Source: Escherichia phage EcS1. Taken from it: DNA of 64,000 bases. How positions within the stretch are numbered: the first letter of the stretch is position 1; every line of letters starts with the position of its first letter. The notes under the pieces were generated by a model. It saw only the letters and a list, made by a program, of their open reading frames with translations. It did not search any database and was not told the DNA's origin. Positions 1 to 45,074 of this stretch are shown here, piece by piece. The translations under genes were made by a program, and so were the position numbers. The stretch lies in the sequence record NC_055721.1, one strand, 5' to 3'.

Positions 1-183
1 AAATCGTTGACCTTTAAAAGGTCCTGACATGAATCGATACATTTTATAATCTAATACATCAATTGAATGAAGTATCTTAAAGAAGACTTTTTGATCGGTC
101 TGCTTTGAAGCCGTCATAAAATCAATGTATTCGGAAATGGTCATGCCTAGAGCATTCATAGCTTTTAAAAACGAAGTTTTCAT
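1..183 (-). CDS. hypothetical protein, partial (N-terminal 61 aa in window; C-terminus beyond window start)
   Basis: Minus-strand ATG at 183 overlaps the upstream stop (ATGA); frame stays open to position 1 (MKTSFLKAMNALGMTISEYIDF...). Confidence 0.35.
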   Translation of the reverse strand, partial: MKTSFLKAMNALGMTISEYIDFMTASKQTDQKVFFKILHSIDVLDYKMYRFMSGPFKGQRF

Positions 184-701
184 TGTATTCCCATCACGAA
201 GAAAAGAGGTAGAGGAACTTCACCTTGAGAAGTATAATTCACCCGCATAGATTCCCATGCTTCATAGAACTTATACATCTCAGGGATACGAATTGGTTCT
301 TCAATTATAATCAATGTTCTCTGAAGCGAAAGGCCTCGATAACGATCTTTATTATCACTCAAGAAGTTTCTGATTGTATCATCAACTAATACACCTTTGA
401 CTTTATCGATATTTTCTAAAGCCATCCATCGACGCATAATACGGTCTCTGGTTTTTCGAGCATAAGGAGATTTGTTGGCTAGAACAATTACTGATTTACC
501 GTCAGCGAGCCATTCAGCAGCGAATCTAGAGACAGCTTCAGTTTTACCAGATTGACGACCACCGTCAATACGAAGTGTGCAATATTCTTGCAGCAATGAG
601 ATAGGGTGTAACCCTTTATTATTCTTGTCTTCTAAACAATCATCAGCACGGTTATTAAAAGCATGCATCAAGGTTAGATAGATTGGAGTTAAGTATTTCA
701 T
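180..701 (-). CDS. hypothetical P-loop NTPase
   Basis: 173-aa ORF with a Walker-A-like motif GGRQSGKT; no closer family recognised. Confidence 0.5.
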   Translation of the reverse strand: MKYLTPIYLTLMHAFNNRADDCLEDKNNKGLHPISLLQEYCTLRIDGGRQSGKTEAVSRFAAEWLADGKSVIVLANKSPYARKTRDRIMRRWMALENIDKVKGVLVDDTIRNFLSDNKDRYRGLSLQRTLIIIEEPIRIPEMYKFYEAWESMRVNYTSQGEVPLPLFFVMGIQ

Positions 702-951
702 GTTGCCTCAGTTAGGGTATGCTTAAGAGGGGACATCCATGTCAATAAATCCATCAGCCGAATGTAACCTTTAGAGACGCGGTCTCACCTTAATTAAGAT
801 TAAGGTAGGAAGGCCCATTATTAAGAGGGTCGGGGTCCTTTTTTCTCGATTGTAACTGGCTTTACCGCACTTGGGCTAGACCTTTTCACAGGTACCAGAA
901 GCCACTTCACTAGAGGAACGAATGTTCATAGGAGAGGTTCGAGTTAGCTTT

Positions 952-1401
952 TTACATATCTACCAATTTGCCGTTTTTAACTCGCATAACTTTAGCGGCT
1001 AATTTATTAGTTGGATTTTTCTGACGGACAATAGATGCTAAGCTATTAGCTGCTGTTTTAGCTGCGGCATAATCGTCATACCAATCACGACCAGTTTTAA
1101 TACGCTTAGTTCCTTTGTCTACTGTAACAATCCATTGAGATTGATCATTAGGGTCCATTTCTATGCGAATATCACCACCTGATACTAAACCAGATTGGAC
1201 CTTAGTAGGTTTGTTAGGGACAGTACCACCTAATGCTTTCGCCGCCTTTACAGCATCTTCATAACTCAGCCCAGCTTCAATAGTTTCAGCCTTGCGTCCT
1301 TTGCCACGATTAACATTAAAGGTTGTACCCCATCCAGGAACAATTTCAATATCCATTTCATGTTTTGCCGCTTCAGCTATAAATTCTTGATAAGTTTTCA
1401 T
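952..1401 (-). CDS. internal head protein (IPII/IPIII-like) with capsid targeting sequence
   Basis: N-terminus MKTYQEFIAEA matches the T4 internal-protein capsid targeting sequence with a gp21 protease site after the Glu; basic 149-aa protein. Confidence 0.6.
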   Translation of the reverse strand: MKTYQEFIAEAAKHEMDIEIVPGWGTTFNVNRGKGRKAETIEAGLSYEDAVKAAKALGGTVPNKPTKVQSGLVSGGDIRIEMDPNDQSQWIVTVDKGTKRIKTGRDWYDDYAAAKTAANSLASIVRQKNPTNKLAAKVMRVKNGKLVDM

Positions 1402-1415
1402 AATATCCTTTGTAG

Positions 1416-1829
1416 TTAGTTAATAGCCTTACCATAATGTTTATACCACAAAGGCTTTTGAGTAATCTTTTCGTCAAGACGTTCCTGAGATAAACGAAGA
1501 GCACGTTGATTAGGAATATAATCATTACACCACTCGACAGGAATATCTGTTATGGGCTTAACAGTAGTATCAGTAATTTTGAAACCACGTTTTAAGCATT
1601 CATTGATGAGCTTAAACTGACGATTATGTAAGAACTTTAACTTGTTATAGAAGAATGTAACATGACCAGTCCCAAGCAAAAAGGTATCAGAGATTTTGAA
1701 ATCAGAAACCTTTTTACCAGCAGCAATATGCTTACGAACAGCACCAAACACACGAGGGAGCTCGCGATACTCCGCCATTAGATGTTGATCAGTTAATTCA
1801 GAAACAGGTGTTAAGTTAATACGTGTCAT
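1416..1829 (-). CDS. denV: endonuclease V, pyrimidine-dimer DNA glycosylase
   Basis: [34 protein letters not shown]... is near-identical in pattern to T4 DenV; start placed at the MTRINL Met, 4 codons inside the longest ORF. Confidence 0.85.
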
Positions 1830-1884
1830 GATGTCCTCCATTAGTTTAGGAAGACATCATACCACAGTACTATCTTGTTGTAAA

Positions 1885-2187
1885 CTACTTCTTAGAGTAA
1901 TCACTCATTAGTTTAACTATGTCACCAAGTTTCTTGTTGAACAGATAATCTACTTCTTTACCTGCTTTGTTAACAATCTGCCATTGGCCATCGCCTTTGT
2001 TACCGAAAGTGTAGTCGCCAACTTTAAATGAGTAGCCGCCTACTTTTTTAACAGGAGTTACTTCAAAGCCAAGTTTTTTAGCTTGGAAAGTTACACGACG
2101 CAGAGTGTCGTCCATTTCGCTTTCAGTTAGTGGTTGGGTATAAGTTTCAAGGTAAGATTCTAGTAAAGTCATTCGTATGCACCCCAA
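1885..2187 (-). CDS. hypothetical protein
   Basis: 100-aa ORF between denV and e; start uncertain (internal Met at MTLLESY). Confidence 0.4.
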
Positions 2188-2657
2188 GTGCCAGTTTTAA
2201 AAGTAGAGATAACACGCTTAGCGCGATTAGGTGTCTGATTATACCATCGGGATTTAGATAAATTAACTGCTGCTTCATCCCAACGTTTTTCTTTAAGCAT
2301 ACGCATAGAATTCGTAAATCCTGCGACGCCTGCAACACCCATTTGGAAGACCATATTAATCAGTGCAGCACGACGAACACCATCCAGAACATCATATACA
2401 GGCTTCAGAACTGAGTTGCCTAAGATGCCTCGAGTTGCCTTTTCAACATCTTTATTAAAGATGCTTTCAGCTTCGGCTTGACTGAGCTGACCGTTACAGT
2501 CGCGTCCAACAAGTTTATTAAGTTCAGTTTTAGCAATATCAAGAGATGGTTCTTTGGTCAAAAGATGACCGATACCAATTGTGTAATACCCTTCGGTATC
2601 TTTATAAATTTTAGAATCGTATCCTTCATCGATACGAAGCATTCCGAAAATATCCAT
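2169..2657 (-). CDS. e: T4-type lysozyme (endolysin)
   Basis: [35 protein letters not shown]...[15 protein letters not shown] matches T4 lysozyme along its whole length (162 aa). Confidence 0.9.
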
Positions 2658-3401: not shown

Positions 3402-3706
3402 TAAAAGGCCTCCACAAAGTTATAGAGATTAAAATCTTTTGCATCATACTTACCATAATGAATGGCTTTCATAGTATCGTACATATCATAATACTTTTCA
3501 CGAGCCAGCGTACCAAAGAGATGAATCTTGAGAATGTCCCAATCTTTGCCTAATTCACCACTACTGAAAGAATAAACCTTTTCTACTATTTTAATAATAC
3601 GAAGAGCAACTTCTTGGTCAGTAGGTGAGACCCAACCCCAGTTATGATAAACTGTTCCAGTCACTACACCATCTTTAAAACTTGCTAATCCGGTTGGACA
3701 ACTCAT
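3401..3706 (-). CDS. hypothetical protein
   Basis: 101-aa ORF; start overlaps the upstream stop. Confidence 0.45.
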   Translation of the reverse strand: MSCPTGLASFKDGVVTGTVYHNWGWVSPTDQEVALRIIKIVEKVYSFSSGELGKDWDILKIHLFGTLAREKYYDMYDTMKAIHYGKYDAKDFNLYNFVEAF

Positions 3707-8119: not shown

Positions 8120-8196
8120 TGGTGCTGAATGCAGGAATCGAACCCGCGACCTTCTCATTACAAGTGAGCTGCTCTACCTACTGAGCTAATTCAGCA
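8120..8196 (-). tRNA. tRNA-Thr (anticodon TGT)
   Basis: Cloverleaf read by hand; sequence closely resembles T4 tRNA-Thr; CCA encoded. Confidence 0.75.
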
Positions 8197-8199
8197 ATT

Positions 8200-8284
8200 T
8201 GGTGCATCGAGAGGGATTCGAACCCTCAATCCTCGCGGCGTGGCATTTTAAGTGCCATGTGTATACCAGTTCCACCATCGATGC
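8200..8284 (-). tRNA. tRNA-Leu (anticodon TAA)
   Basis: 85-nt class II tRNA with long variable arm; anticodon loop CTTAAAA; CCA encoded. Confidence 0.7.
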
Positions 8285-8288
8285 GAAT

Positions 8289-8363
8289 TGGTCGAGACAG
8301 TAGGGATCGAACCTACGACCTAGGACTTAGAAGGTCCTTGCTCTTCCGTCTGAGCTATGCCCC
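8289..8363 (-). tRNA. tRNA-Arg (anticodon TCT)
   Basis: Anticodon arm GGAC-CTTCTAA-GTCC, T-loop TTCGATC, CCA encoded. Confidence 0.7.
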
Positions 8364-8525
8364 GTCTTTGTATAAACGTTCTAAGTAAACATGCTCCATC
8401 GGTTTAACGATTTCGCCTTGTTTCAATAATTGTGTTTGAATAGGATTCAAATTATAAAATTTGATCACATCTCTGAGATCTTGTTCGCTATAATTAAAAG
8501 TTCCTACTTCTACTCCGATTTGCAT
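8355..8525 (-). CDS. hypothetical small protein (56 aa)
   Basis: Small ORF between tRNA genes, not in the supplied track (below its length cut-off); stop overlaps the tRNA-Arg 5' end. Confidence 0.25.
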   Translation of the reverse strand: MQIGVEVGTFNYSEQDLRDVIKFYNLNPIQTQLLKQGEIVKPMEHVYLERLYKDGA

Positions 8526-8537
8526 AAGTATCCTTTT

Positions 8538-8624
8538 TGGAGCTAGGAGTGAGATTCGAACTCACGAAAGCATAACGCTACTGGATTTGCAATCCAGCGC
8601 CTTTGACCACTCGGCAATCCTAGC
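8538..8624 (-). tRNA. class II-type tRNA with anticodon GCA (Cys) and U73 discriminator
   Basis: 87 nt; acceptor GCTAGGA/TCCTAGC, Ser/Tyr-like D-arm GCCGAGTGGTCAAAGGC, anticodon stem CTGGA/TCCAG with loop TTGCAAA, 15-nt variable arm, T-loop TTCGAAT. Confidence 0.5.
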
Positions 8625-8626
8625 AA

Positions 8627-8754
8627 ATGTTCAGGTGGGAGTCGAACCCACACGATTGAAGCCTCTCATCGGGTTACCTCTTACTCAGCTGGGTGCTTAA
8701 ACCAGCGTTTCAAACAGAGTCCGCCAACATGTCTACCGATTCCATCACTGAACA
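8627..8754 (-). ncRNA. tRNA-like stable RNA candidate (about 128 nt)
   Basis: Perfect 7-bp acceptor-like pairing (TGTTCAG/CTGAACA) next to a canonical T-arm (GTGGG-TTCGACT-CCCAC) and a Leu-like D region (GGAATCGGTAGAC), but too long for a tRNA and without a clean anticodon arm. Confidence 0.35.
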
Positions 8755-8758
8755 ATTT

Positions 8759-8983
8759 TTACATATCTACTTGACAAAACCAGTTCATTTCAAAATATTC
8801 ATCAAAATGTAATGCAGGTTCTACTTGACAATTTTCTTCTAATAAGACCAAATTTCTTCTAACAATAGGGTCTAATGACGTGATGGTCAAAGCACTATCA
8901 TGATAGTAAATCAGAACACGAAGCGAATCTGTATCAACTAAATACCGAACATTCATATCAGGATGTTTGTAGAGGTTAATCAT
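8759..8983 (-). CDS. hypothetical protein
   Basis: 74-aa ORF upstream of the tRNA block. Confidence 0.4.
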   Translation of the reverse strand: MINLYKHPDMNVRYLVDTDSLRVLIYYHDSALTITSLDPIVRRNLVLLEENCQVEPALHFDEYFEMNWFCQVDM

Positions 8984-8989
8984 AACATT

Positions 8990-9436
8990 TTATCCTTGAA
9001 GCATTTCACGAACACGATAAAGATTAGAACAGAATTCTTGTTCAGTTAGAACAGTTTCATTCTTTTTATTCTTACCCATGCTATGAGTTAATGTTGAGTT
9101 ACGCGTAGCTAGGAGTGCTCTCTTGAATCCTTCATTCAAAGCCAGAGAATCATATGCTCGCTGAATTAAAGACGTATAGGCTATACTTTGACGTAAAATA
9201 GGGACACCTTTCCAGTACAACGTTTGGGTGCGCCACCAGTTCTTTTTCTTACCTTTGAACTTAGCTTTCTTACCAACTAATGTACAGACATGCTCTTGCA
9301 TTTCTACTGAAGAAAACTTCAATGATTGCAAGAAACCTTCCATTGATGCACACTGTACTCCATCAATTTCGAAAGCATGAGGAGCAAAGTTACTTAATGC
9401 ACAACTTGGGTACATTGAACCTGAACCAATATCCAT
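8990..9436 (-). CDS. NADAR-domain protein (YbiA/DUF1768-like)
   Basis: LSNFAPHAFEIDGVQCASMEGFLQSLKF and FKRALLATRNSTLTHS match conserved NADAR blocks (compare E. coli YbiA FSNFAAWPIKVDGKTWPTSEHYFQAQKF and LRALLLATAPAKLVEHT). Confidence 0.65.
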   Translation of the reverse strand: MDIGSGSMYPSCALSNFAPHAFEIDGVQCASMEGFLQSLKFSSVEMQEHVCTLVGKKAKFKGKKKNWWRTQTLYWKGVPILRQSIAYTSLIQRAYDSLALNEGFKRALLATRNSTLTHSMGKNKKNETVLTEQEFCSNLYRVREMLQG

Positions 9437-9527
9437 TATCCATTATTCCTTTGATGATAATAACAGCGTTTACATCGATACCAACCGAAATAATCTTTGT
9501 AGATTATTCTATTGCAGTTGGGACATT

Positions 9528-9782
9528 TCATGCTGGTTCTACCTCAGTCATTGTTGTCCGTTTCAGAACCACACAACCTTCTATTTCAGGGTCTTTCTTA
9601 ACCAGAACTCGTCCAGTAGGCGAAATAAGGCCAGTAATATGATTCAGAGCTTTAGCAGCATCATTGAAGCCATCAGCTTGCATAATCGTTCCGAATGAGA
9701 ACCCTTGATAGTGATTACTAAACTCGTAATAAGCGTATTCTTCACGAATAGGGCAATAAATCACATAATCAACATTCAGCAT
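9528..9782 (-). CDS. hypothetical protein
   Basis: 84-aa ORF. Confidence 0.4.
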   Translation of the reverse strand: MLNVDYVIYCPIREEYAYYEFSNHYQGFSFGTIMQADGFNDAAKALNHITGLISPTGRVLVKKDPEIEGCVVLKRTTMTEVEPA

Positions 9783-10114
9783 AAGTCACCTACACATTGG
9801 AGAGCACGATGGTGTGACCATATTTCTAAAGTCTTTTCGTTGGCTTTATTAATTCGACGAAGGTCATTTAAATTACCTTTAACATATAACCCAAGTTCAC
9901 TTAACAAATGATCGATAGTGAAATAAGAAATATCTCGCAGTGGAGCATAACGGAACTTAATGAAGTGCCATTCATCAAACTCGTTTTTGGTAAACGCATA
10001 ATCAGCATGCATCATGAGTTCGCGAATCGTTTCACGCATCAAAAAGACATTACCGTGATAAGAATCATTTATAGCAACAATATGTGGACCTACACCTAGA
10101 TAGATACGAGACAT
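9776..10114 (-). CDS. hypothetical protein
   Basis: 112-aa ORF preceded by RBS GAGGAAA. Confidence 0.45.
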   Translation of the reverse strand: MSRIYLGVGPHIVAINDSYHGNVFLMRETIRELMMHADYAFTKNEFDEWHFIKFRYAPLRDISYFTIDHLLSELGLYVKGNLNDLRRINKANEKTLEIWSHHRALQCVGDLC

Positions 10115-10133
10115 AATATTTTCCTCAGTCAGT

Positions 10134-10304
10134 TTATTCTACATCATATTCAACTACAAGCACTTCTTCATAATCTTCAGGATTAAGAGTTTTAATGTAG
10201 TCTTCTGCTTTTTCTTTACTCGATAGAATCTTTAATGGCTTTGAATATTCATCATATCCATATTCACAGTTAAACTCTGACATAACAACTGCGTATACTA
10301 TCAT
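10134..10304 (-). CDS. hypothetical small acidic protein (56 aa)
   Basis: ORF below the track cut-off; the same RBS (GAGGAAAATATT-ATG) as the downstream gene. Confidence 0.35.
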   Translation of the reverse strand: MIVYAVVMSEFNCEYGYDEYSKPLKILSSKEKAEDYIKTLNPEDYEEVLVVEYDVE

Positions 10305-10324
10305 AATATTTTCCTCATTTGAAT

Positions 10325-10401
10325 TGGTGGCCCTTGTCGGAGTCTAACCGACCTTACACCAGTTATGAGCTGGGCACTTTCACACGAAAGTATAAAGGGC
10401 C
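10325..10401 (-). tRNA. tRNA-Met-like (anticodon CAT), non-canonical D and T loops
   Basis: 77 nt with perfect acceptor stem and CCA, anticodon loop CTCATAA; D-loop lacks GG and T-loop is TTAGACT. Confidence 0.4.
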
Positions 10402-10458
10402 ATTATTAAAATATTTTTACTTTAATAATGGCCCTCTCCGAAGAGAGGACAGAGGGTA

Positions 10459-10743
10459 TTACTTACACATGAACTTAGCAACTTCATCGAAGCTGTTCAA
10501 GATGTAATAAGACTTAGGCGCACTGTATTCAGTAGGTTTAATAGTAATACGTACACGACCATGCAAGTCTTCAACTAATCCAACAACAGCACTTGAACGA
10601 ACAACAGCACGAGCAGTTGTAGGAATCTGACCGGTAGTCAGAGCTTGAAGTTCGGTGTCAATAAGGATTACAATACGTTCAGACATTTTAATTTCCATTT
10701 GTTGTTTCGATGTAGTAATAATAACATGATTATTTTGAAGCAT
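10459..10743 (-). CDS. hypothetical protein
   Basis: 94-aa ORF; start uncertain (internal Met candidates). Confidence 0.4.
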   Translation of the reverse strand: MLQNNHVIITTSKQQMEIKMSERIVILIDTELQALTTGQIPTTARAVVRSSAVVGLVEDLHGRVRITIKPTEYSAPKSYYILNSFDEVAKFMCK

Positions 10744-10801
10744 AACCGTTCAGAGACTAAAAAGCCCAGTACAAGATTTCTCTTGCCCGGGCGTCATTAT
10801 T

Positions 10802-10876
10802 TGGAGCAGCATATCGGACTCGAACCGATGTCGACTGGGTGGAAGCCAGTAATATTAACCACTATACGAATGCTGC
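10802..10876 (-). tRNA. tRNA-Gly (anticodon TCC)
   Basis: Acceptor GCAGCAT/ATGCTGC, anticodon arm ACTGG-CTTCCAC-CCAGT, T-loop TTCGAGT, CCA encoded. Confidence 0.7.
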
Positions 10877-10877
10877 A

Positions 10878-10951
10878 TGGCAGGCCCTGTAGGAATCGAA
10901 CCCACGTCGCTGAGGTTGGAGCTCAGAATGATACCACTATACCAAGGACCC
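10878..10951 (-). tRNA. tRNA-Trp (anticodon CCA)
   Basis: Anticodon arm CTGAG-CTCCAAC-CTCAG, T-loop TTCGATT, CCA encoded. Confidence 0.65.
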
Positions 10952-11102
10952 GTTGATTGTACGGAACGCCTGGATTCGAACCAGGTTACAAAGCAGTTGA
11001 CGCTCCTTTGTATTTTGTAAGGCCATCATCTCGACCATATCCGAACGTTTCGTCAAAAACGCTACTCGGCTTATGGCAAAGACAAATCCTCGAACCGATA
11101 AT

Positions 11103-11177
11103 TGGTGGGAGCTGTTGGTAACGATCCAACCTCTCGAGCTCTTCAGGCAAGCGCTAATCCGTCTCAGCTAAACTCCC
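11103..11177 (-). tRNA. tRNA-Phe-like (anticodon GAA), weakened anticodon stem
   Basis: 75 nt, acceptor GGGAGTT/AGCTCCC plus ACCA; anticodon loop CTGAAGA; two mismatches in the anticodon stem and an atypical T-loop. Confidence 0.4.
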
Positions 11178-11262
11178 AGATCCACAAGAACTTTACAAGC
11201 ATTGCGCTTAACCTTTTCAGGAAGTTAGGGTACTATTTCTAGTCTGTGGTTATCCCTATTTT

Positions 11263-11338
11263 TGGTGGGAATAGCTGGATTTGAACCAGCGACCTATCGC
11301 TTATCGGGCGAGTGCTCTACCAACTGAGCTATATTCCC
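11263..11338 (-). tRNA. tRNA-Ile (anticodon GAT)
   Basis: Acceptor GGGAATA/TATTCCC, D-arm GCTC-AGTTGGTA-GAGC, anticodon loop CCGATAA (C33), T-loop TTCAAAT, CCA encoded. Confidence 0.6.
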
Positions 11339-11344
11339 ATAATT

Positions 11345-11421
11345 TGGTCTCCATATAAGGATTTGAACCTTAGACCTCCTGGCCCCAAACCAGGCGCTCT
11401 ACCAAACTGAGCTACACGGAG
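11345..11421 (-). tRNA. tRNA-Pro (anticodon TGG)
   Basis: Anticodon arm CCTGG-TTTGGGG-CCAGG, T-loop TTCAAAT, CCA encoded. Confidence 0.7.
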
Positions 11422-11422
11422 A

Positions 11423-11668
11423 TTAATTTATATCAAATATGGTGCCATCTTTCCACATCATTGCGAAAAGAGGTGAAACTTTTGTTAAACGGTGTGCAAC
11501 TTTAACTTGACGGCTAAAACCTTCAATTTGAGCACCATAACCATTTATATCTAATACAAGACCAATATGAACTTTGCCAATATCAGACATACCATTTGAA
11601 GGTAATCCAATCATGACATAATCGTTAACTTCGATTTGTTTACCATATTTGTCAAATAATATCTTCAT
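11423..11668 (-). CDS. hypothetical protein
   Basis: 81-aa ORF embedded in the tRNA cluster. Confidence 0.4.
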   Translation of the reverse strand: MKILFDKYGKQIEVNDYVMIGLPSNGMSDIGKVHIGLVLDINGYGAQIEGFSRQVKVAHRLTKVSPLFAMMWKDGTIFDIN

Positions 11669-11693
11669 AATTATTTATTCACCATATTTTAAT

Positions 11694-11787
11694 TGGAGGA
11701 AGCTGTGAGATTTGAACTCACGGAACCTGTCCCCAGGACCTCTAGTTTTCAAGACTAGTGCAATAAACCAGACTCTGCCAAGCTTCC
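11694..11787 (-). tRNA. tRNA-Ser (anticodon TGA)
   Basis: 94-nt class II tRNA; anticodon arm CTAGT-CTTGAAA-ACTAG, long variable arm, T-loop TTCAAAT, CCA encoded. Confidence 0.7.
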
Positions 11788-11791
11788 GAAT

Positions 11792-11867
11792 TGGGGTGAC
11801 CTGTGGAATTCGAATCCACGACTACGAGAATCACAATCTCGAGTTCTACCAACTGAACTAAGGCCAC
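11792..11867 (-). tRNA. tRNA-His (anticodon GTG)
   Basis: Anticodon arm CGAGA-TTGTGAT-TCTCG, T-loop TTCGAAT, CCA encoded. Confidence 0.7.
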
Positions 11868-11967
11868 ATCAATATTCACTCAGCCACTTCGTGCGGACCT
11901 GTCTCGATATTACGTGTAGTGGATTAGCTAGTTCACACCACTATATCGTCTAGAATGAATATTAATT

Positions 11968-12043
11968 TGGCTAGAGCGCTTGGATTCGAACCAAGGAATA
12001 CCAGAATCAAAATCTGGTGTCGTAACCGCTTGACTACGCTCTA
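11968..12043 (-). tRNA. tRNA-Gln (anticodon TTG)
   Basis: Perfect acceptor TAGAGCG/CGCTCTA, anticodon arm CCAGA-TTTTGAT-TCTGG, T-loop TTCGAAT, CCA encoded. Confidence 0.7.
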
Positions 12044-12045
12044 AT

Positions 12046-12121
12046 TGGAGGCGAGTGATGGAATCGAACCATCGCGTAAAGGGATATGAACCCTTTATTC
12101 TACCACTGAAGTTAACTCGCT
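12046..12121 (-). tRNA. tRNA-Met (anticodon CAT), initiator-like features
   Basis: Anticodon loop TTCATAT closed by three consecutive G-C pairs (GGG/CCC); 1-72 position is an A-C mismatch; T-loop TTCGATT; CCA encoded. Confidence 0.55.
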
Positions 12122-12248
12122 ATTGTCCGGGTTCTCGAAGTAAAAACAAGTAGCTTGATGTAGAACACATAAAGTGGGAACAACTCACTTCATCTCCTAG
12201 CATTATTGTATGGAGACTCAAACTCATCTTCAAGAACTGCTTCGTATT

Positions 12249-12325
12249 TGGCGGACGTGCTTGGACTCGAACCAAGGACCTATCGCTTAACAGGCGACCG
12301 CTCTAACCAACTGAGCTACACATCC
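12249..12325 (-). tRNA. tRNA-Asn (anticodon GTT)
   Basis: Anticodon loop CTGTTAA, T-loop TTCGAGT, CCA encoded. Confidence 0.7.
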
Positions 12326-12329
12326 AAAA

Positions 12330-12461
12330 TTTACTTTCAGGGTTACTCGAAGCTCTCAAACCTTCCGGAAAGTCGAATAAGCATCTCATCCTCTCAGAAT
12401 CCCGTGCACAGGAAAAATCTTTATTAGGAGGAGACTAAATCAATATAACCCTGAAAGTAAA
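12330..12461. repeat. perfect 16-bp inverted repeat flanking a 100-nt spacer
   Basis: TTTACTTTCAGGGTTA (12330-12345) and its exact reverse complement TAACCCTGAAAGTAAA (12446-12461); the spacer contains the palindrome TTCCGGAA. Confidence 0.6.
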
Positions 12462-12475
12462 CTTACTTTCGAATT

Positions 12476-12552
12476 TGGTGGGACATCATGGACTCGAACC
12501 ATGGACACCCGGATTAAAAGTCCGGTGCTCTAACCAACTGAGCTAATATCCC
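12476..12552 (-). tRNA. tRNA-Lys (anticodon TTT)
   Basis: Anticodon arm CCGGA-CTTTTAA-TCCGG, T-loop TTCGAGT, CCA encoded. Confidence 0.7.
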
Positions 12553-13060
12553 ATAGATATTTATCTATAAATCTCTTAGCTTGAGTATGACTTATATTTA
12601 AACTTTTACTAAACTTGGTTAATGCACCTCGTTTAGTAAAATCTATTAAATTATAAGCTTCAATTCTAGAAGCAATTTCTTCTTCAGACAAAACCAAAGC
12701 ATGGTTTTCTGAAATCTTTTTACGAGATTCTGTTGTATGTGACATACCAGTAAAACCAAGAGTAGGTTTTAGTCTACCATTAGCTTTAGCGTCTTGTGCA
12801 TTTTGTTTATTTGTCGCACAATAAATGTTTTCTAATGAATAAGGACCTATATCGCCTTTACGACACATGCAATAATCCAAACTTGCTTTACCACGTAAAT
12901 GATATTTACCTGTTGATTTCCACCAAGTAAACCACTCATCAAAAGTTAGATTAAATTCAATACCACGAGCTTTGGCATGAACTTTTTGCATACGGTACTT
13001 TTCATAATCTTCCATACAACTCTCACAAATTGGCAGTGCCGACGGGATTCGAACCCGCAT
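12530..13060 (-). CDS. putative HNH-type homing endonuclease with NUMOD-like and HTH-like C-terminal motifs
   Basis: CxxC plus Cys/His-rich N-terminal region (CESC...DYCMCRKGDIGPYSLENIYCATNKQN), NUMOD3-like GFTGMSHTTESRKKISENH, C-terminal HTH-like segment; both ORF ends overlap tRNA genes, so the true start is probably the internal Met at about 13015. Confidence 0.45.
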   Translation of the reverse strand: MRVRIPSALPICESCMEDYEKYRMQKVHAKARGIEFNLTFDEWFTWWKSTGKYHLRGKASLDYCMCRKGDIGPYSLENIYCATNKQNAQDAKANGRLKPTLGFTGMSHTTESRKKISENHALVLSEEEIASRIEAYNLIDFTKRGALTKFSKSLNISHTQAKRFIDKYLWDISSVG

Positions 13061-13105
13061 GGTCTCCCGTGACAGGGGAGTATATTACCAAGTCTACCAC
13101 GGCAC
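13030..13105 (-). tRNA. tRNA-Asp (anticodon GTC)
   Basis: Perfect acceptor AGTGCCG/CGGCACT, anticodon arm CTCCC-CTGTCAC-GGGAG, T-loop TTCGAAT, CCA encoded. Confidence 0.7.
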
Positions 13106-13111
13106 TATTGT

Positions 13112-13187
13112 TTGGTACTCTGTAGGAGAATTGAACTCCTCTTCCCAGGTTGAAAACCTGGTGTCCTAACCGATAGACGAACAGAGC
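13112..13187 (-). tRNA. tRNA-Glu (anticodon TTC)
   Basis: Anticodon arm CCAGG-TTTTCAA-CCTGG, T-loop TTCAATT, CCA encoded. Confidence 0.65.
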
Positions 13188-13195
13188 TAAGAATT

Positions 13196-13284
13196 TGGTG
13201 CACCGAGAAGGACTCGAACCTACGAAGCTCATTACAAGCAGGAGATTTACAGTCTCCACCCTTTGCCACTCGGGTCATCGATGC
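13196..13284 (-). tRNA. tRNA-Tyr (anticodon GTA)
   Basis: 89-nt class II tRNA; D region CCCGAGTGGCAAAGGG and anticodon arm GGAGA-CTGTAAA-TCTCC resemble E. coli tRNA-Tyr; CCA encoded. Confidence 0.65.
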
Positions 13285-14021: not shown

Positions 14022-14933
<912 letters not shown>

Positions 14934-43165: not shown

Positions 43166-43591
43166 ATGTTAATGCTCCCTGAAGACCACGAATTAGTAAT
43201 CGATAATGTCGAAGCTCTGATTCCTGAAGCACAGGGTCGCCTTGACATCTTGTCGAAAGCACTTGATAAAGCCGATATAAATAAAATTGTAGAGAACATG
43301 CTGAGTGATAATACCGATTTGGCTATTGCACTTGGTTCTCTCAATGAAGATATGCAATTAAATGAATTCATTGTTAAACATGTTTCTAGTCGTGGAGAAA
43401 TTACTCGTACTAAAGACCGTAAAACACGTGAACGTAATGCTTATCAGACAACTGGCTTATCTAAAGCAGCTCGTCGTCAAATTGCTCGCAAGGCGACCAA
43501 AACAAAACGCGCTAATCCGTCTATCACCACGCGTGCCCAACGTAAAAAGAAAAAAGCGATGGCCAAGCGTAAAGCATTTGGACTAAGCTAA
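43166..43591 (+). CDS. 68: prohead core protein gp68
   Basis: 141 aa (T4 gp68 141), basic C-terminus. Confidence 0.7.
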
Positions 43592-44235
43592 TGAATGAAC
43601 CCCAATTACTAATTGAAAATTGGGGTCAACCAGGCGAAGTGATTAATGGTATTCCGATGCTTGAATCTCACGATGGTTCAGATTCTGGTTTAAAACCAGG
43701 TCTTTATATCGAAGGTGTATTCATGCAAGCTGAAGTTGTTAACCGTAATAAACGTCTTTACCCAAAAACAATTTTGGAAAAAGCTGTTTCTAATTACATT
43801 AAAGAACAAGTTCAGACTAAACAAGCTTTAGGAGAATTAAACCATCCACCTCGTGCTAACGTTGACCCTATGCAAGCTGCCATCATCATTGAAGAAATGT
43901 GGTGGAAAGGCAATGATGTATACGGACGTGCACGTATTATCGAAGGTGACCACGGTCCTGGTGATAAATTAGCTGCAAACATCCGTGCAGGCTGGATTCC
44001 TGGTGTGTCCAGTCGCGGCCTAGGAGCTTTGAAAGCTTCAGGTAAAGGTTATAACATCGTTCAGGAAGGTTTTCGCCTGACGGTTGGTGTGGACGCTGTA
44101 TGGGGACCTAGTGCTCCTGATGCGTGGGTCCAGCCGAAACAAATTTCTGAAAGTACAGAAGAAAAGGCGCAAGTCGCCAATACAAGTGCTGATGATGCTT
44201 TTAATGCACTAGCCGAGCGCTTAAAAGCGTTATAA
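43591..44235 (+). CDS. 21: prohead core scaffold and protease gp21
   Basis: 214 aa (T4 gp21 212) in the conserved position. Confidence 0.88.
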   Translation: MNEPQLLIENWGQPGEVINGIPMLESHDGSDSGLKPGLYIEGVFMQAEVVNRNKRLYPKTILEKAVSNYIKEQVQTKQALGELNHPPRANVDPMQAAIIIEEMWWKGNDVYGRARIIEGDHGPGDKLAANIRAGWIPGVSSRGLGALKASGKGYNIVQEGFRLTVGVDAVWGPSAPDAWVQPKQISESTEEKAQVANTSADDAFNALAERLKAL

Positions 44236-44267: not shown

Positions 44268-45074
44268 ATGCTGAAAGAACTACTGATTAGCGAAGCTAAA
44301 GAAATCGAAGCTTCCGTAGAACTTGATAGCGTTTTCGAATCAGTTAATCTGTCTGATGAAGCAAAAGCTAATTTCAGCACTGTATTCGAAGCGACCGTCA
44401 AAAAACACGCCGTACAACTGGCAGAATCTCATATTACTAAAATTGCCGAATTGGCCGAATCTCAGGTTCAAGAAGGTATCGAAGCTGCTAAAATCGAAGC
44501 AGAAGCTACTTTGACCGAATCTGCTTCTAAATTCTTCGACCACATCGCTAAAGAATGGCTGGCAGAAAATAAAATTGCAATTGATCGTGGTATTAAAGGC
44601 GACCTGTTCGAATCTATGCTGACCGGCATGAAAGAACTGTTCGTAGAACACAACGTTGTTATTCCTGCTGAATCTGTAGATGTTGTTGCAGAAATGGAAG
44701 AAGAACTTGCTGAAGCTAACGCCGAAACTACTAAATTGTTTGAGTCTAATGTTTCTCTGACTGCTGAAATTGCTTCTATGAAGCGTGATTTTGCAATCAC
44801 TGAAATGACTCGTGATTTAACTGAATCTCAGAAAGAGAGTGTAACATCTCTAACTGAAGGAATGGATTATTCAGATGCTTTTACTGGTAAGTTGACCGCT
44901 ATCGTCGAGATGGTTAAAACATCTAAAGATAAAACCATTACTGAAGGTGTAATAAATACTCCTGAAGATGATGCTGCAAAACTGAACTTTGTATCAGAAG
45001 CAGTCGATGAAAAATCAACTAAAGCACCTTCAGTCATGGATGCATACATCCGCGGTGCGACCCGTCTTTCTTAA
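44268..45074 (+). CDS. 22: prohead core scaffold protein gp22
   Basis: 268 aa (T4 gp22 269); acidic, alanine/glutamate-rich helical protein. Confidence 0.85.
   Translation: MLKELLISEAKEIEASVELDSVFESVNLSDEAKANFSTVFEATVKKHAVQLAESHITKIAELAESQVQEGIEAAKIEAEATLTESASKFFDHIAKEWLAENKIAIDRGIKGDLFESMLTGMKELFVEHNVVIPAESVDVVAEMEEELAEANAETTKLFESNVSLTAEIASMKRDFAITEMTRDLTESQKESVTSLTEGMDYSDAFTGKLTAIVEMVKTSKDKTITEGVINTPEDDAAKLNFVSEAVDEKSTKAPSVMDAYIRGATRLS

What the first reader, a model, noticed from the sequence alone, without database searches (positions are those of the whole stretch)
952..1401. Second capsid-targeted internal protein (MKTYQEFIAEA) beside denV
The exact T4-type targeting decapeptide MKTYQEFIAE-A heads a 149-aa basic protein whose body is not recognisably IPII or IPIII. 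Internal protein repertoires vary between T-even phages and are linked to host range and defence evasion.
Basis: partly seen in the sequence, partly recalled or inferred. Interest (0 to 1): 0.45.

Follow-up and report, generated by a model that had tools for sequence, protein, structure and literature searches.

The report
Capsid-targeted internal protein of phage EcS1
This is a real gene of the T4-like phage EcS1 for a small basic protein carrying the exact T4 "pack me into the head" tag; its rear half belongs to a known but uncharacterised family of putative internal head proteins and its front half is an orphan module, so it is a new member of a well-known, notoriously variable class.

Summary
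Window 952..1401 (minus strand) is a 149-aa ORF starting MKTYQEFIAEA, 14 nt after denV, pI 9.5. The window is Escherichia phage EcS1 (Kagamiyamavirus) and the ORF is its gp135, "hypothetical protein".

The first 11 residues are identical to T4 IPII and IPIII. Nothing else matches either. The body has two parts:
- Residues ~69-149 are homologous (41% identity, E 4e-11) to ~97-aa tagged proteins (phrog_3966; "ip10" in phage VR25). In CC31 and VR25 these directly follow denV; in RB69 one CTS gene intervenes.
- Residues ~12-68 are an orphan module seen only in two metagenomic T4-like contigs.

The same window encodes the prohead protease gp21 and scaffold gp22. The only (L/I)xE site is IAE|A at residues 8-10.

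Most likely the protein is packaged through the tag, cut to a 139-aa basic protein and ejected with the DNA. Its target is unknown. No fold, Pfam or PDB relative is informative.

EcS1's nearest relatives carry IPIII in this slot, so the body was swapped between the conserved tag-coding 5' end and a conserved 3' element.

Verdict: new member of a known kind, modest interest. The ~100-nt non-coding 3' element, found in 328 phage records, deserves its own look.

The parts
952..1401 (-). Coding sequence of the 149-aa precursor (EcS1 gp135, KNT65_gp135). The stop codon is at 952-954.
   Evidence: ORF list. 100% identical to P0001, 'Hypothetical protein KNT65_gp135 [Escherichia phage EcS1]'. dN/dS 0.12-0.27 against two homologues.
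1372..1401 (-). Codons 1-10, MKTYQEFIAE: the capsid targeting sequence. The predicted gp21 cleavage is after Glu10, in the motif I8-A9-E10|A11.
   Evidence: Identical to the N-termini of T4 IPII and IPIII. The first 10 residues of IPIII suffice for head incorporation; residues 4 and 7 matter for targeting and 8 and 10 for processing (PMC9026906). The homologues keep F4/F7/I8/E10 and F4/L7/L8/E10. Reading by eye, this is the only [LI]xE site in the protein.
1198..1368 (-). Residues ~12-68: the orphan N-terminal module (predicted strand-strand-strand-helix) plus a Lys/Pro-rich linker of variable length.
   Evidence: Found only in P0002 and P0003. A profile search with the module alone found nothing. 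AF2 gives strands 19-22, 27-31 and 39-42 and a helix at 47-56, at pLDDT 55-63, with the linker at 64-70 below 50. The linker has indels among the homologues.
955..1197 (-). Residues ~69-149: the C-terminal domain, homologous to the Ip10-type / phrog_3966 tagged proteins.
   Evidence: BLASTP against P0005: 41% identity over 82 residues, E 4e-11. The profile search retrieves six ~97-aa proteins at E 5e-31 to 2e-22. The P0005 family is in 190 phage records and maps to phrog_3966. AF2 pLDDT is 75-87, with topology strand-strand-strand-helix-hairpin.
1406..1411 (-). Ribosome-binding site AAAGGA, 4 nt before the ATG.
   Evidence: Read from the sequence. The same RBS/tag block is conserved at the DNA level with other tagged genes.
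1416..1841 (-). denV (endonuclease V), the upstream neighbour. The T4-like start MTRINL is at 1829.
   Evidence: Pfam Pyr_excise 2.2e-15 and phrog_1183 2.7e-59.
1856..1884 (-). Sigma-70-like promoter (TTTACA-17-TATGAT with an upstream TG) ahead of denV. It is the likely source of a denV-gp135 co-transcript.
   Evidence: Promoter scan. There is no exact late promoter TATAAATA near the gene; only a one-mismatch TATAAACA at 1445..1438.
848..951 (-). Conserved non-coding element immediately 3' of the gene. It forms the 3' boundary of the variable internal-protein slot.
   Evidence: 92% identical to Virsaitis27 (after IPIII) and 89% to CC31 (after the Ip10-type gene); 99% to Yersinia phage TG1, and present in 328 phage records. 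Modest covariation. No Rfam match.
43591..44226 (+). gp21 prohead protease, the trans-acting enzyme expected to remove the tag.
   Evidence: tblastn with T4 gp21: 82% identity over 212 aa, E 2e-118.
44268..45068 (+). gp22 scaffolding core protein, the expected docking partner of the tag.
   Evidence: tblastn with T4 gp22: 63% identity over 270 aa, E 5e-70. Internal proteins co-purify with gp22 (PMC9026906).

Best explanation
The gene encodes a capsid-targeted internal (ejection) protein of phage EcS1.

Proposed sequence of events:
1. The 149-aa precursor is probably made from a denV-gp135 co-transcript.
2. It docks on the gp22 scaffolding core of the assembling prohead through its N-terminal decapeptide MKTYQEFIAE.
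3. The prohead protease gp21 cuts after Glu10.
4. The 139-aa, ~15-kDa basic product (pI 9.7) stays inside the head with the packaged DNA.
5. It is ejected into the next host cell together with the genome.

The mature protein has two small alpha/beta modules joined by a flexible Lys/Pro linker:
- The C-terminal module is the domain of the ~97-aa Ip10-type (phrog_3966) tagged proteins of CC31-, RB69- and VR25-like phages.
- The N-terminal module is lineage-specific.

Neither module looks like an enzyme. The most likely activity is stoichiometric binding, either to DNA in the head or to a host factor on arrival, by analogy with T4 IPI*, which inhibits the GmrSD restriction enzyme.

The body occupies a slot that holds IPIII in EcS1's closest relatives. 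This fits replacement by recombination between the conserved tag-coding 5' end and a conserved ~100-nt 3' element.

What is shown: the sequence features, the homologies, the synteny and the presence of gp21 and gp22. What is inferred: packaging, cleavage, ejection, the type of activity and the swap mechanism.
For: - The tag is identical to T4 IPII/IPIII over 11 residues.
- The literature shows that the first 10 residues of IPIII are sufficient to package even foreign proteins, and it maps the targeting residues (4, 7) and processing residues (8, 10) (PMC9026906; PMC3012670). All four are kept or conservatively replaced in the three homologues.
- gp20, gp67, gp68, gp21 (82% identity) and gp22 (63%) are encoded in the same window.
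- The protein is basic, pI 9.5-9.7.
- It sits in the e-denV-vs.8 internal-protein locus, where relatives carry one to four tagged genes.
- The C-terminal domain is homologous to a family of tagged ~97-aa proteins. In CC31 and VR25 their gene directly follows denV; in RB69 another CTS gene (RB69p125) lies between.
- Both modules and the tag are under purifying selection, dN/dS 0.07-0.46.
- The flanks are conserved while the body differs. Lysozyme e is 91% identical to Virsaitis27, which has IPIII in the slot. The tag/RBS block and the 3' element are conserved at the DNA level.
Against: - No virion proteomics or N-terminal sequencing of this protein or of any phrog_3966 member was found, so packaging is inferred from the tag alone.
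- No exact late promoter precedes the gene. The only promoter-like site is of an early sigma-70 type upstream of denV. Timing relative to prohead assembly is therefore not established. T4 ipII and ipIII also carry early-type rather than TATAAATA promoters directly upstream.
- The AF2 model is only moderate: mean pLDDT 69.6, with the N-module at 55-63. BFVD's model of the same protein superposes poorly on it (TM 0.19).
- Nothing indicates what the mature protein binds.
Confidence: 0.75

Rival explanations
1. The protein is packaged as above, but its role is structural or physical rather than anti-defence. It would be an abundant basic protein that helps core assembly kinetics or neutralises DNA charge, as proposed for T4 IPIII, with no specific host target.
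For: - It replaces IPIII in the slot.
- T4 IPIII mutants show slowed head assembly and a reduced burst (PMC9026906).
- Lysines of internal proteins contact DNA phosphates in the T4 head (PMC3012670).
- The protein is Lys/Arg-rich, 23 of 139 residues.
Against: - The body is unrelated to IPIII.
- The rapid turnover of bodies in this slot between close relatives fits an arms-race function better than a housekeeping one.
- A purely charge-neutralising role would not need two folded modules under purifying selection.
Confidence: 0.3
2. The N-terminal module arose by partial tandem duplication of the Ip10-type domain. The protein would then be simply an internally duplicated Ip10 orthologue rather than a fusion with a foreign module.
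For: - Both modules are predicted as strand-strand-strand-helix.
- hhalign aligns them in the register seen by eye (VNRGKGRKAETIE..YEDAVKAAK against VDKGTKRIKTGRD..YDDYAAAK).
- Smith-Waterman against shuffles gives p about 0.03 in two of the three homologues.
Against: - The hhalign E-value is 0.088 and the probability below 1%.
- The third homologue gives p = 0.96.
- The N-module against a stand-alone Ip10-type protein gives p = 0.5-0.8.
- The N-module model has low confidence.
Confidence: 0.25
3. The tag is a relic. The protein would be an early cytoplasmic protein co-expressed with denV that is not packaged in meaningful amounts.
For: - It has no late promoter of its own.
- It lies 14 nt behind denV, downstream of an early-type promoter.
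Against: - The tag is 11/11 identical to T4's, and its key residues are conserved in homologues that are only 60-65% identical overall.
- dN/dS in the tag is below 0.5.
- The tag alone suffices for packaging in T4.
- T4 ip genes also have early-type promoters directly upstream.
Confidence: 0.07

Closest known systems
T4 internal proteins IPII and IPIII (ipII, ipIII)
   Same: The N-terminal 11 residues MKTYQEFIAEA are identical, including the IAE|A gp21 site. Like them, the protein is small and basic. It sits in the same e-denV neighbourhood, and the phage has the gp21/gp22 machinery.
   Different: There is no detectable similarity beyond residue 12. The length is 149 aa against 100 and 193. 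In T4 the ip genes lie between e and denV, whereas this gene lies after denV.
Ip10-type tagged proteins (phrog_3966): VR25 'ip10', CC31p129, RB69 ORF124c, Pet-CM3-4 A0A1D3RL33
   Same: The tag is of the same type. The C-terminal ~80 residues are homologous (41% identity, E 4e-11), sharing the motifs GG.I.IE, W.VTVD, Y..AKTAA, NPTNK.AAKV and GKL.D. In CC31 and VR25 the gene has the same position directly after denV and before vs.8; in RB69 another CTS gene (RB69p125) lies between denV and ORF124c.
   Different: These proteins are 90-105 aa with a single domain. The EcS1 protein inserts a ~55-residue module and a linker between the tag and the domain. PHROG scoring of the EcS1 protein against phrog_3966 is weak (E 1e-4, best stretch residues 1-18). 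The family itself has no demonstrated function or virion localisation.
T4 IPI* (inhibitor of the GmrSD type IV restriction enzyme)
   Same: It is the functional model: a tag-bearing precursor cut by gp21 to a small compact basic protein, which is injected with the DNA and blocks a host nuclease (PMC3012670).
   Different: No sequence similarity was detected between the two in any search here. No host target is known for the EcS1 protein. The EcS1 gene at the tRNA-proximal locus, where T4 ipI lies (from memory of the T4 map), is a different 70-aa ORF (14022..14234).
PeSL promoter-terminator cassettes of T4-like phages (Arbiol 2010; Comeau 2014)
   Same: Like PeSLs, the conserved sequences bounding this gene sit at the edges of a hyperplastic slot and could mediate modular swapping (PMC4122927).
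   Different: The 3' element here has a 32-nt near-invariant core with no counterpart in the PeSL description. Its TTTACA..N17.. segment lacks a good -10 box. It occurs once per genome rather than as a dispersed repeat.

Membership tests
T4-type capsid-targeted internal proteins (CTS proteins) | N-terminal ~10-residue capsid targeting sequence resembling MKTYQEFIAE | tested here: met
   11/11 identity to T4 IPII and IPIII.
T4-type capsid-targeted internal proteins (CTS proteins) | gp21 processing site at the end of the tag (hydrophobic residue at position 8, Glu at position 10) | tested here: met
   I8-A9-E10|A11. The homologues have ITE|A and LAE|T. The determinants come from PMC9026906. The test is by sequence only.
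T4-type capsid-targeted internal proteins (CTS proteins) | The phage encodes the prohead protease gp21 and the scaffolding core gp22 | tested here: met
   gp21 at 43591-44226 (82% identity) and gp22 at 44268-45068 (63%).
T4-type capsid-targeted internal proteins (CTS proteins) | Small basic protein encoded in a variable internal-protein locus | tested here: met
   pI 9.5-9.7 and 15 kDa when mature. The e-denV-vs.8 locus holds tagged genes in Virsaitis27, CC31, RB69, VR25, TG1 and T4.
T4-type capsid-targeted internal proteins (CTS proteins) | Physically present in the mature head in processed form and ejected with the DNA | not testable with these tools
   This needs virion mass spectrometry and N-terminal mapping. 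No proteomic data for EcS1 were found in the paper library.
T4 IPII | Sequence homology of the mature body | tested here: not met
   BLASTP aligns residues 1-11 only.
T4 IPIII | Sequence homology of the mature body | tested here: not met
   BLASTP aligns residues 1-12 only; a second segment has E 5.7. The true IPIII orthologue in Virsaitis27 is 189 aa and clearly alignable to T4 IPIII by eye.
Ip10-type / phrog_3966 | Homology to the family domain | tested here: met
   Residues 69-148 against P0005: 41% identity, E 4e-11. Profile hits at E 5e-31 to 2e-22. P0005, RB69 ORF124c and VR25 ip10 all map to phrog_3966.
Ip10-type / phrog_3966 | Single-domain architecture of ~90-105 aa (tag directly followed by the domain) | tested here: not met
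   The protein is 149 aa, with an extra ~55-residue module and linker between tag and domain.
Ip10-type / phrog_3966 | Gene position downstream of denV, upstream of vs.8 | tested here: met
   Directly after denV in CC31 and VR25. In RB69 another CTS gene (RB69p125) lies between denV and ORF124c. The EcS1 gene starts 14 nt after the denV stop.
PepSY domain (PF03413) | Score at or above the Pfam gathering threshold | tested here: not met
   14 bits against a cut-off of 24, E 0.063, residues 45-107.
UPF0339 / YegP-like or FtsH periplasmic-domain fold | Significant structural similarity | tested here: inconclusive

The most novel reading that the evidence does not exclude
The orphan N-terminal module is a new host-factor-binding (anti-defence) domain grafted onto an Ip10-type carrier. 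This would give EcS1 and two uncultured relatives an injected two-headed inhibitor aimed at a defence system, for example a modification-dependent nuclease, that IPIII-carrying relatives do not counter. The swap would have happened by recombination between the tag-coding sequence and the conserved 3' RNA-like element, which would then act as the right-hand recombination or regulatory boundary of an internal-protein cassette system.
Probability: 0.15. Interest if true: 0.55.

Novelty: new member of a known kind. Interest (0 to 1): 0.3.

Why it matters
Internal proteins are the first phage proteins to reach the host cytoplasm. The one characterised case, T4 IPI*, is a dedicated restriction-enzyme inhibitor, while the roles of IPII, IPIII and the many "Ip" variants are still open (PMC9026906).

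This gene adds a rare two-module variant, with only three sequences among about 5.8 billion proteins. It also links the previously unnamed phrog_3966 family to the tag-bearing class by position and homology. And it gives a clean natural swap for host-range tests: IPIII against gp135 between phages whose flanking lysozyme is 91% identical.

It does not change the understanding of the system. Diversity of tagged proteins in this locus has been known since the 1990s.

Tried and rejected
Searches on the protein that gave nothing useful:
- Orthology to T4 IPII or IPIII is rejected; only the tag aligns.
- tblastn of the whole protein against 50,697 phage records found no match. The collection apparently lacks EcS1, and the low-complexity filter and short tag prevent hits.
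- Exhaustive phmmer against 1.84 billion representatives found only itself, one Ip10-type protein (E 8e-4) and a spurious repeat protein.
- A profile of the N-module alone found nothing, not even the source sequences, so this null is weak.
- Pfam gave only a sub-threshold PepSY hit. CsgH hits to some Ip10-type members (best E 0.003) were not pursued.
- A PDB sequence profile search found nothing at E up to 10.
- Internal duplication of the modules has suggestive topology but is statistically unsupported.
- No dedicated late promoter was found; only a one-mismatch TATAAACA inside the denV 3' end, shared with CC31.

Checks on the 3' element:
- Folding of the whole 702-960 spacer is unremarkable, z = 0.27.
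- No Rfam family matches and there is no tRNA.
- It does not fit the PeSL definition.
- It is not a dispersed repeat, and it does not generally flank internal-protein genes on both sides.

Literature searches for EcS1 proteomics and for "Ip10" returned nothing usable.

Full report
**Identity of the window and of the gene**

The ORF lister reports a 149-aa ORF on the minus strand at 952..1401. It begins MKTYQEFIAEAAKHEMDIEIVPGW and has an AAAGGA ribosome-binding site 4 nt upstream (sequence). A search of about 5.8 billion proteins returned a 100% match to "Hypothetical protein KNT65_gp135 [Escherichia phage EcS1]" on a 175,437-bp contig. EcS1 is the sole species of Kagamiyamavirus in the Tevenvirinae.

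The neighbours on the same strand are:
- lysozyme e at 2657..2169;
- a 95-aa phrog_8765 "internal virion protein" at 2172..1885;
- denV at 1841..1416;
- the target gene;
- a 250-nt spacer;
- a 173-aa homologue of T4 vs.8 at 701..180 (phrog_1488).

**Check of the observation**

Translation of T4 ipII and ipIII from NC_000866 shows that both start MKTYQEFIAEA. BLASTP of the EcS1 protein against either aligns only residues 1-11 or 1-12. The precursor has pI 9.49 and the protein lacking the first ten residues has pI 9.66.

A pattern scan of all six frames finds only one other canonical tag-bearing ORF in the 64-kb window, at 14022..14234 (70 aa, [11 protein letters not shown]). It lies just beyond the tRNA cluster, where ipI lies in T4 (from memory of the T4 map).

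**What the body is**

tblastn of the whole protein against 50,697 phage records gave nothing. Only two other full-length homologues exist in the large protein collections: P0002 (143 aa, 65% identity) and P0003 (153 aa, 60%). Both come from Logan assemblies of T4-like contigs.

The gene is syntenic in both contigs. In L002 the order is e, denV, the gene, vs.8. In L003 it directly follows a lysozyme e gene and precedes vs.8. The three sequences keep the frame despite indels in a Lys/Pro-rich linker. Pairwise dN/dS is 0.12-0.27 overall and is similar in the tag, the N-module and the C-module.

An exhaustive phmmer scan of 1.84 billion representatives added one informative hit. P0005 is a 97-aa protein starting MKTYQEFLTE that aligns to residues 69-148 at 41% identity, pairwise E 4e-11.

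The P0005 family has these properties:
- It occurs in 190 phage records: Karamvirus/CC31-like, Mosigvirus/RB69-like and Gaprivervirus.
- It corresponds to phrog_3966, "unknown function".
- Its gene lies directly after denV in CC31 (CC31p129) and VR25, where it is annotated "ip10, putative internal head protein". In RB69, ORF124c follows denV with one CTS gene (RB69p125) between them.

The EcS1 protein is thus tag, then a ~55-residue module and linker, then an Ip10-type domain. The N-module has no relative outside the three proteins.

**Structure**

AlphaFold2 on an 11-sequence alignment gave mean pLDDT 69.6.
- The C-module is predicted as strand-strand-strand-long helix-hairpin, at pLDDT 75-87.
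- The N-module is predicted as strand-strand-strand-helix, at pLDDT 55-63.
- The linker at 64-70 is below 50.

No structural search was informative:
- Foldseek against PDB had nothing at E 0.001 or below.
- BFVD returned only the EcS1 protein itself and an Ip10-type protein of Cronobacter phage Pet-CM3-4.
- Pfam gave only a sub-threshold PepSY hit of 14 bits against a cut-off of 24.
- A PDB sequence profile search found nothing.

The idea that the N-module is a duplicate of the C-module rests on similar predicted topology and a by-eye register that hhalign reproduces. The statistics are weak: hhalign E 0.088, shuffle p about 0.03 in two homologues and 0.96 in the third.

**Why packaging is the best reading**

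The literature establishes several points (PMC9026906; PMC3012670):
- The first ten residues of IPIII suffice to incorporate IPIII, and foreign proteins such as GFP or nucleases, into the T4 head.
- Residues 4 and 7 matter for targeting, and residues 8 and 10 for processing.

The EcS1 protein has that exact decapeptide. Its homologues keep F4/F7/I8/E10 and F4/L7/L8/E10. IAE|A is the only (L/I)xE site in the protein, so a single cut giving a 139-aa product is expected.

The same window encodes portal gp20, gp67, gp68, the protease gp21 (82% identity to T4) and the scaffold gp22 (63%).

No exact late promoter lies nearby. A sigma-70-like promoter with an extended -10 box sits just upstream of denV, so a denV-gp135 co-transcript is likely. 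T4 ipII and ipIII likewise have early-type promoters, not TATAAATA, directly upstream.

**Evolutionary context**

By flanking genes, EcS1's nearest relatives in the phage collection are Winklervirus phages such as Virsaitis27 (lysozyme e 91% and denV 71% amino-acid identity). These carry a 189-aa IPIII orthologue in the slot after denV.

The two contigs that share gp135 are much more distant overall (e 68%, denV 65%, vs.8 48-56%). They nevertheless keep gp135 at 64-68% identity.

At the DNA level, similarity between EcS1 and Virsaitis27, CC31 or VR25 disappears across the gene body. It is found again only at two places: the RBS/tag-coding block (about 1361-1418) and window 848-953, immediately 3' of the stop codon.

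This pattern is what recombinational replacement of the body between two conserved boundaries would leave. It also agrees with the long-standing view that the tag lets T-even phages shuffle diverse cargo.

**Comparison with known families, and novelty**

As a mechanism this is a standard T4-type tagged internal protein. All sequence-testable defining features are met. Physical presence in the virion could not be tested.

It is not IPII or IPIII. It is a distant, expanded relative of the uncharacterised phrog_3966/"Ip10" group and fails that group's single-domain architecture.

I rate it a new member of a known kind, of modest interest. Its rarity and the orphan module are mildly notable, and the natural IPIII-for-gp135 swap offers a tidy experiment.

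**A side observation that may be more interesting**

Window 848-951 (minus strand) is a non-coding element conserved more strongly than the genes around it.
- It is 99% identical in Yersinia phage TG1, 92% in Virsaitis27 and 89% in CC31.
- It is present in 328 phage records of many Tevenvirinae genera and in 34 IMG/VR contigs.
- In every locus inspected it lies after the last gene of the e/IP/denV block, and before vs.8 or, in Klebsiella Jiaodavirus-like phages, before another tagged gene.
- It has a 32-nt near-invariant core, ACCTGTAATAAGGTCGAGCCCAAGTGCGGTAA.
- Its indels are not multiples of three.
- It contains a small hairpin, ACCU-N6-AGGU, which changes to GCCU/AGGC in STML-198.
- A flanking two-pair helix alternates CC/GG with GG/CC in 4 of 13 sequences. 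Covariation exceeds all 500 shuffles and all slid controls, but only three pairs vary.
- It has no Rfam match.
- In T4 it lies inside the annotated 5' end of vs.8, which is probably over-extended.
- EcS1 and two IMG/VR phages carry a second, degenerate tandem copy; in EcS1 it is at about 745-843.

Its function is unknown. Candidates are a structured RNA, a processing site or a boundary for cassette exchange.

Noticed in passing
window 848-951 (minus strand); also L004:1850-1945 (T4) and loci L010-L051: A ~100-nt non-coding element directly 3' of the gene is conserved more strongly than the flanking genes. It is 99% identical in Yersinia phage TG1 and is present in 328 phage records and 34 IMG/VR contigs. 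It has a 32-nt near-invariant core, ACCTGTAATAAGGTCGAGCCCAAGTGCGGTAA. Its indels are not multiples of three, a few pairs covary, and it has no Rfam match. In every locus inspected it lies between the e/IP/denV block and vs.8, or before a further tagged gene.
   Followed up: partly
window ~745-843 (minus strand); L025:5091-5165, L032:9105-9181: EcS1 carries a second, degenerate tandem copy of the same element (AAAGGACCCCGACCCTCT...GGGCCTTCCTACCTTAATCTTAATTAAGGT...). This explains its unusually long 250-nt spacer before vs.8. Two IMG/VR phages also have a tandem second copy.
   Followed up: partly
L004:1254-1913 (T4 vs.8, NC_000866 64253-64912): The annotated T4 vs.8 (219 aa) runs across the conserved non-coding element. 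Homologues in EcS1, RB69 and others are ~167-199 aa and start downstream of it (T4/RB69: MRTFLTG; EcS1: MKYLTPIY). The T4 start codon is therefore probably annotated too far upstream.
   Followed up: partly
window 1885-2172 (minus strand): A 95-aa protein lies between e and denV (phrog_8765 'internal virion protein', E 1.7e-44). It occupies the slot that holds MKTY-tagged proteins in CC31, RB69 and VR25, but it starts [17 protein letters not shown]|SE. It has no canonical tag, though it does have a possible L-x-E protease site after residue 17. The ORF lister's longer TTG start at 2187 overlaps e.
   Followed up: partly
window 14022-14234 (minus strand): This is the second canonical tag-bearing ORF in the window (70 aa, [11 protein letters not shown]..., phrog_23867 'unknown function', E 1e-32). 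It lies just past the tRNA cluster, the position of ipI in T4 (from memory of the T4 map). Its body was not compared with T4 IPI.
   Followed up: partly
window 180-701 (minus strand): The vs.8 homologue (phrog_1488, unknown function) shows weak similarity to the P-loop ATPase region of large terminases and to AAA domains (Terminase_6N E 2e-4, phrog_2 E 2e-8).
   Followed up: no
L004:2720-2840 and 3417-3510 (T4, upstream of ipII and ipIII): Both T4 ip genes are preceded by GTTTAC-type early promoter-like sequences overlapping long perfect palindromes (CTAGAATTGTGA...TCACAATTCTAG and GGAATTGTGA...TCACAATT). These look like PeSL-type promoter/stem-loop cassettes. EcS1 gp135 has no such unit of its own.
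   Followed up: no
L003:2-151 and 151-582: In the metagenomic contig SRR25394075_84424 the gp135 homologue directly follows a lysozyme e gene, with no denV in between. The slot is therefore defined by the downstream element and vs.8 rather than by denV.
   Followed up: no
window 8120-13284 (minus strand): There is a cluster of 17 tRNA genes, about twice the eight I recall for T4 (not checked here).
   Followed up: no
window 1416-1841 (minus strand): The first ATG of the denV ORF (1841, [10 protein letters not shown]) lies 12 nt upstream of the T4-like start MTRINL (1829). The sigma-70-like promoter at 1884..1856 leaves very little leader for the longer form.
   Followed up: no
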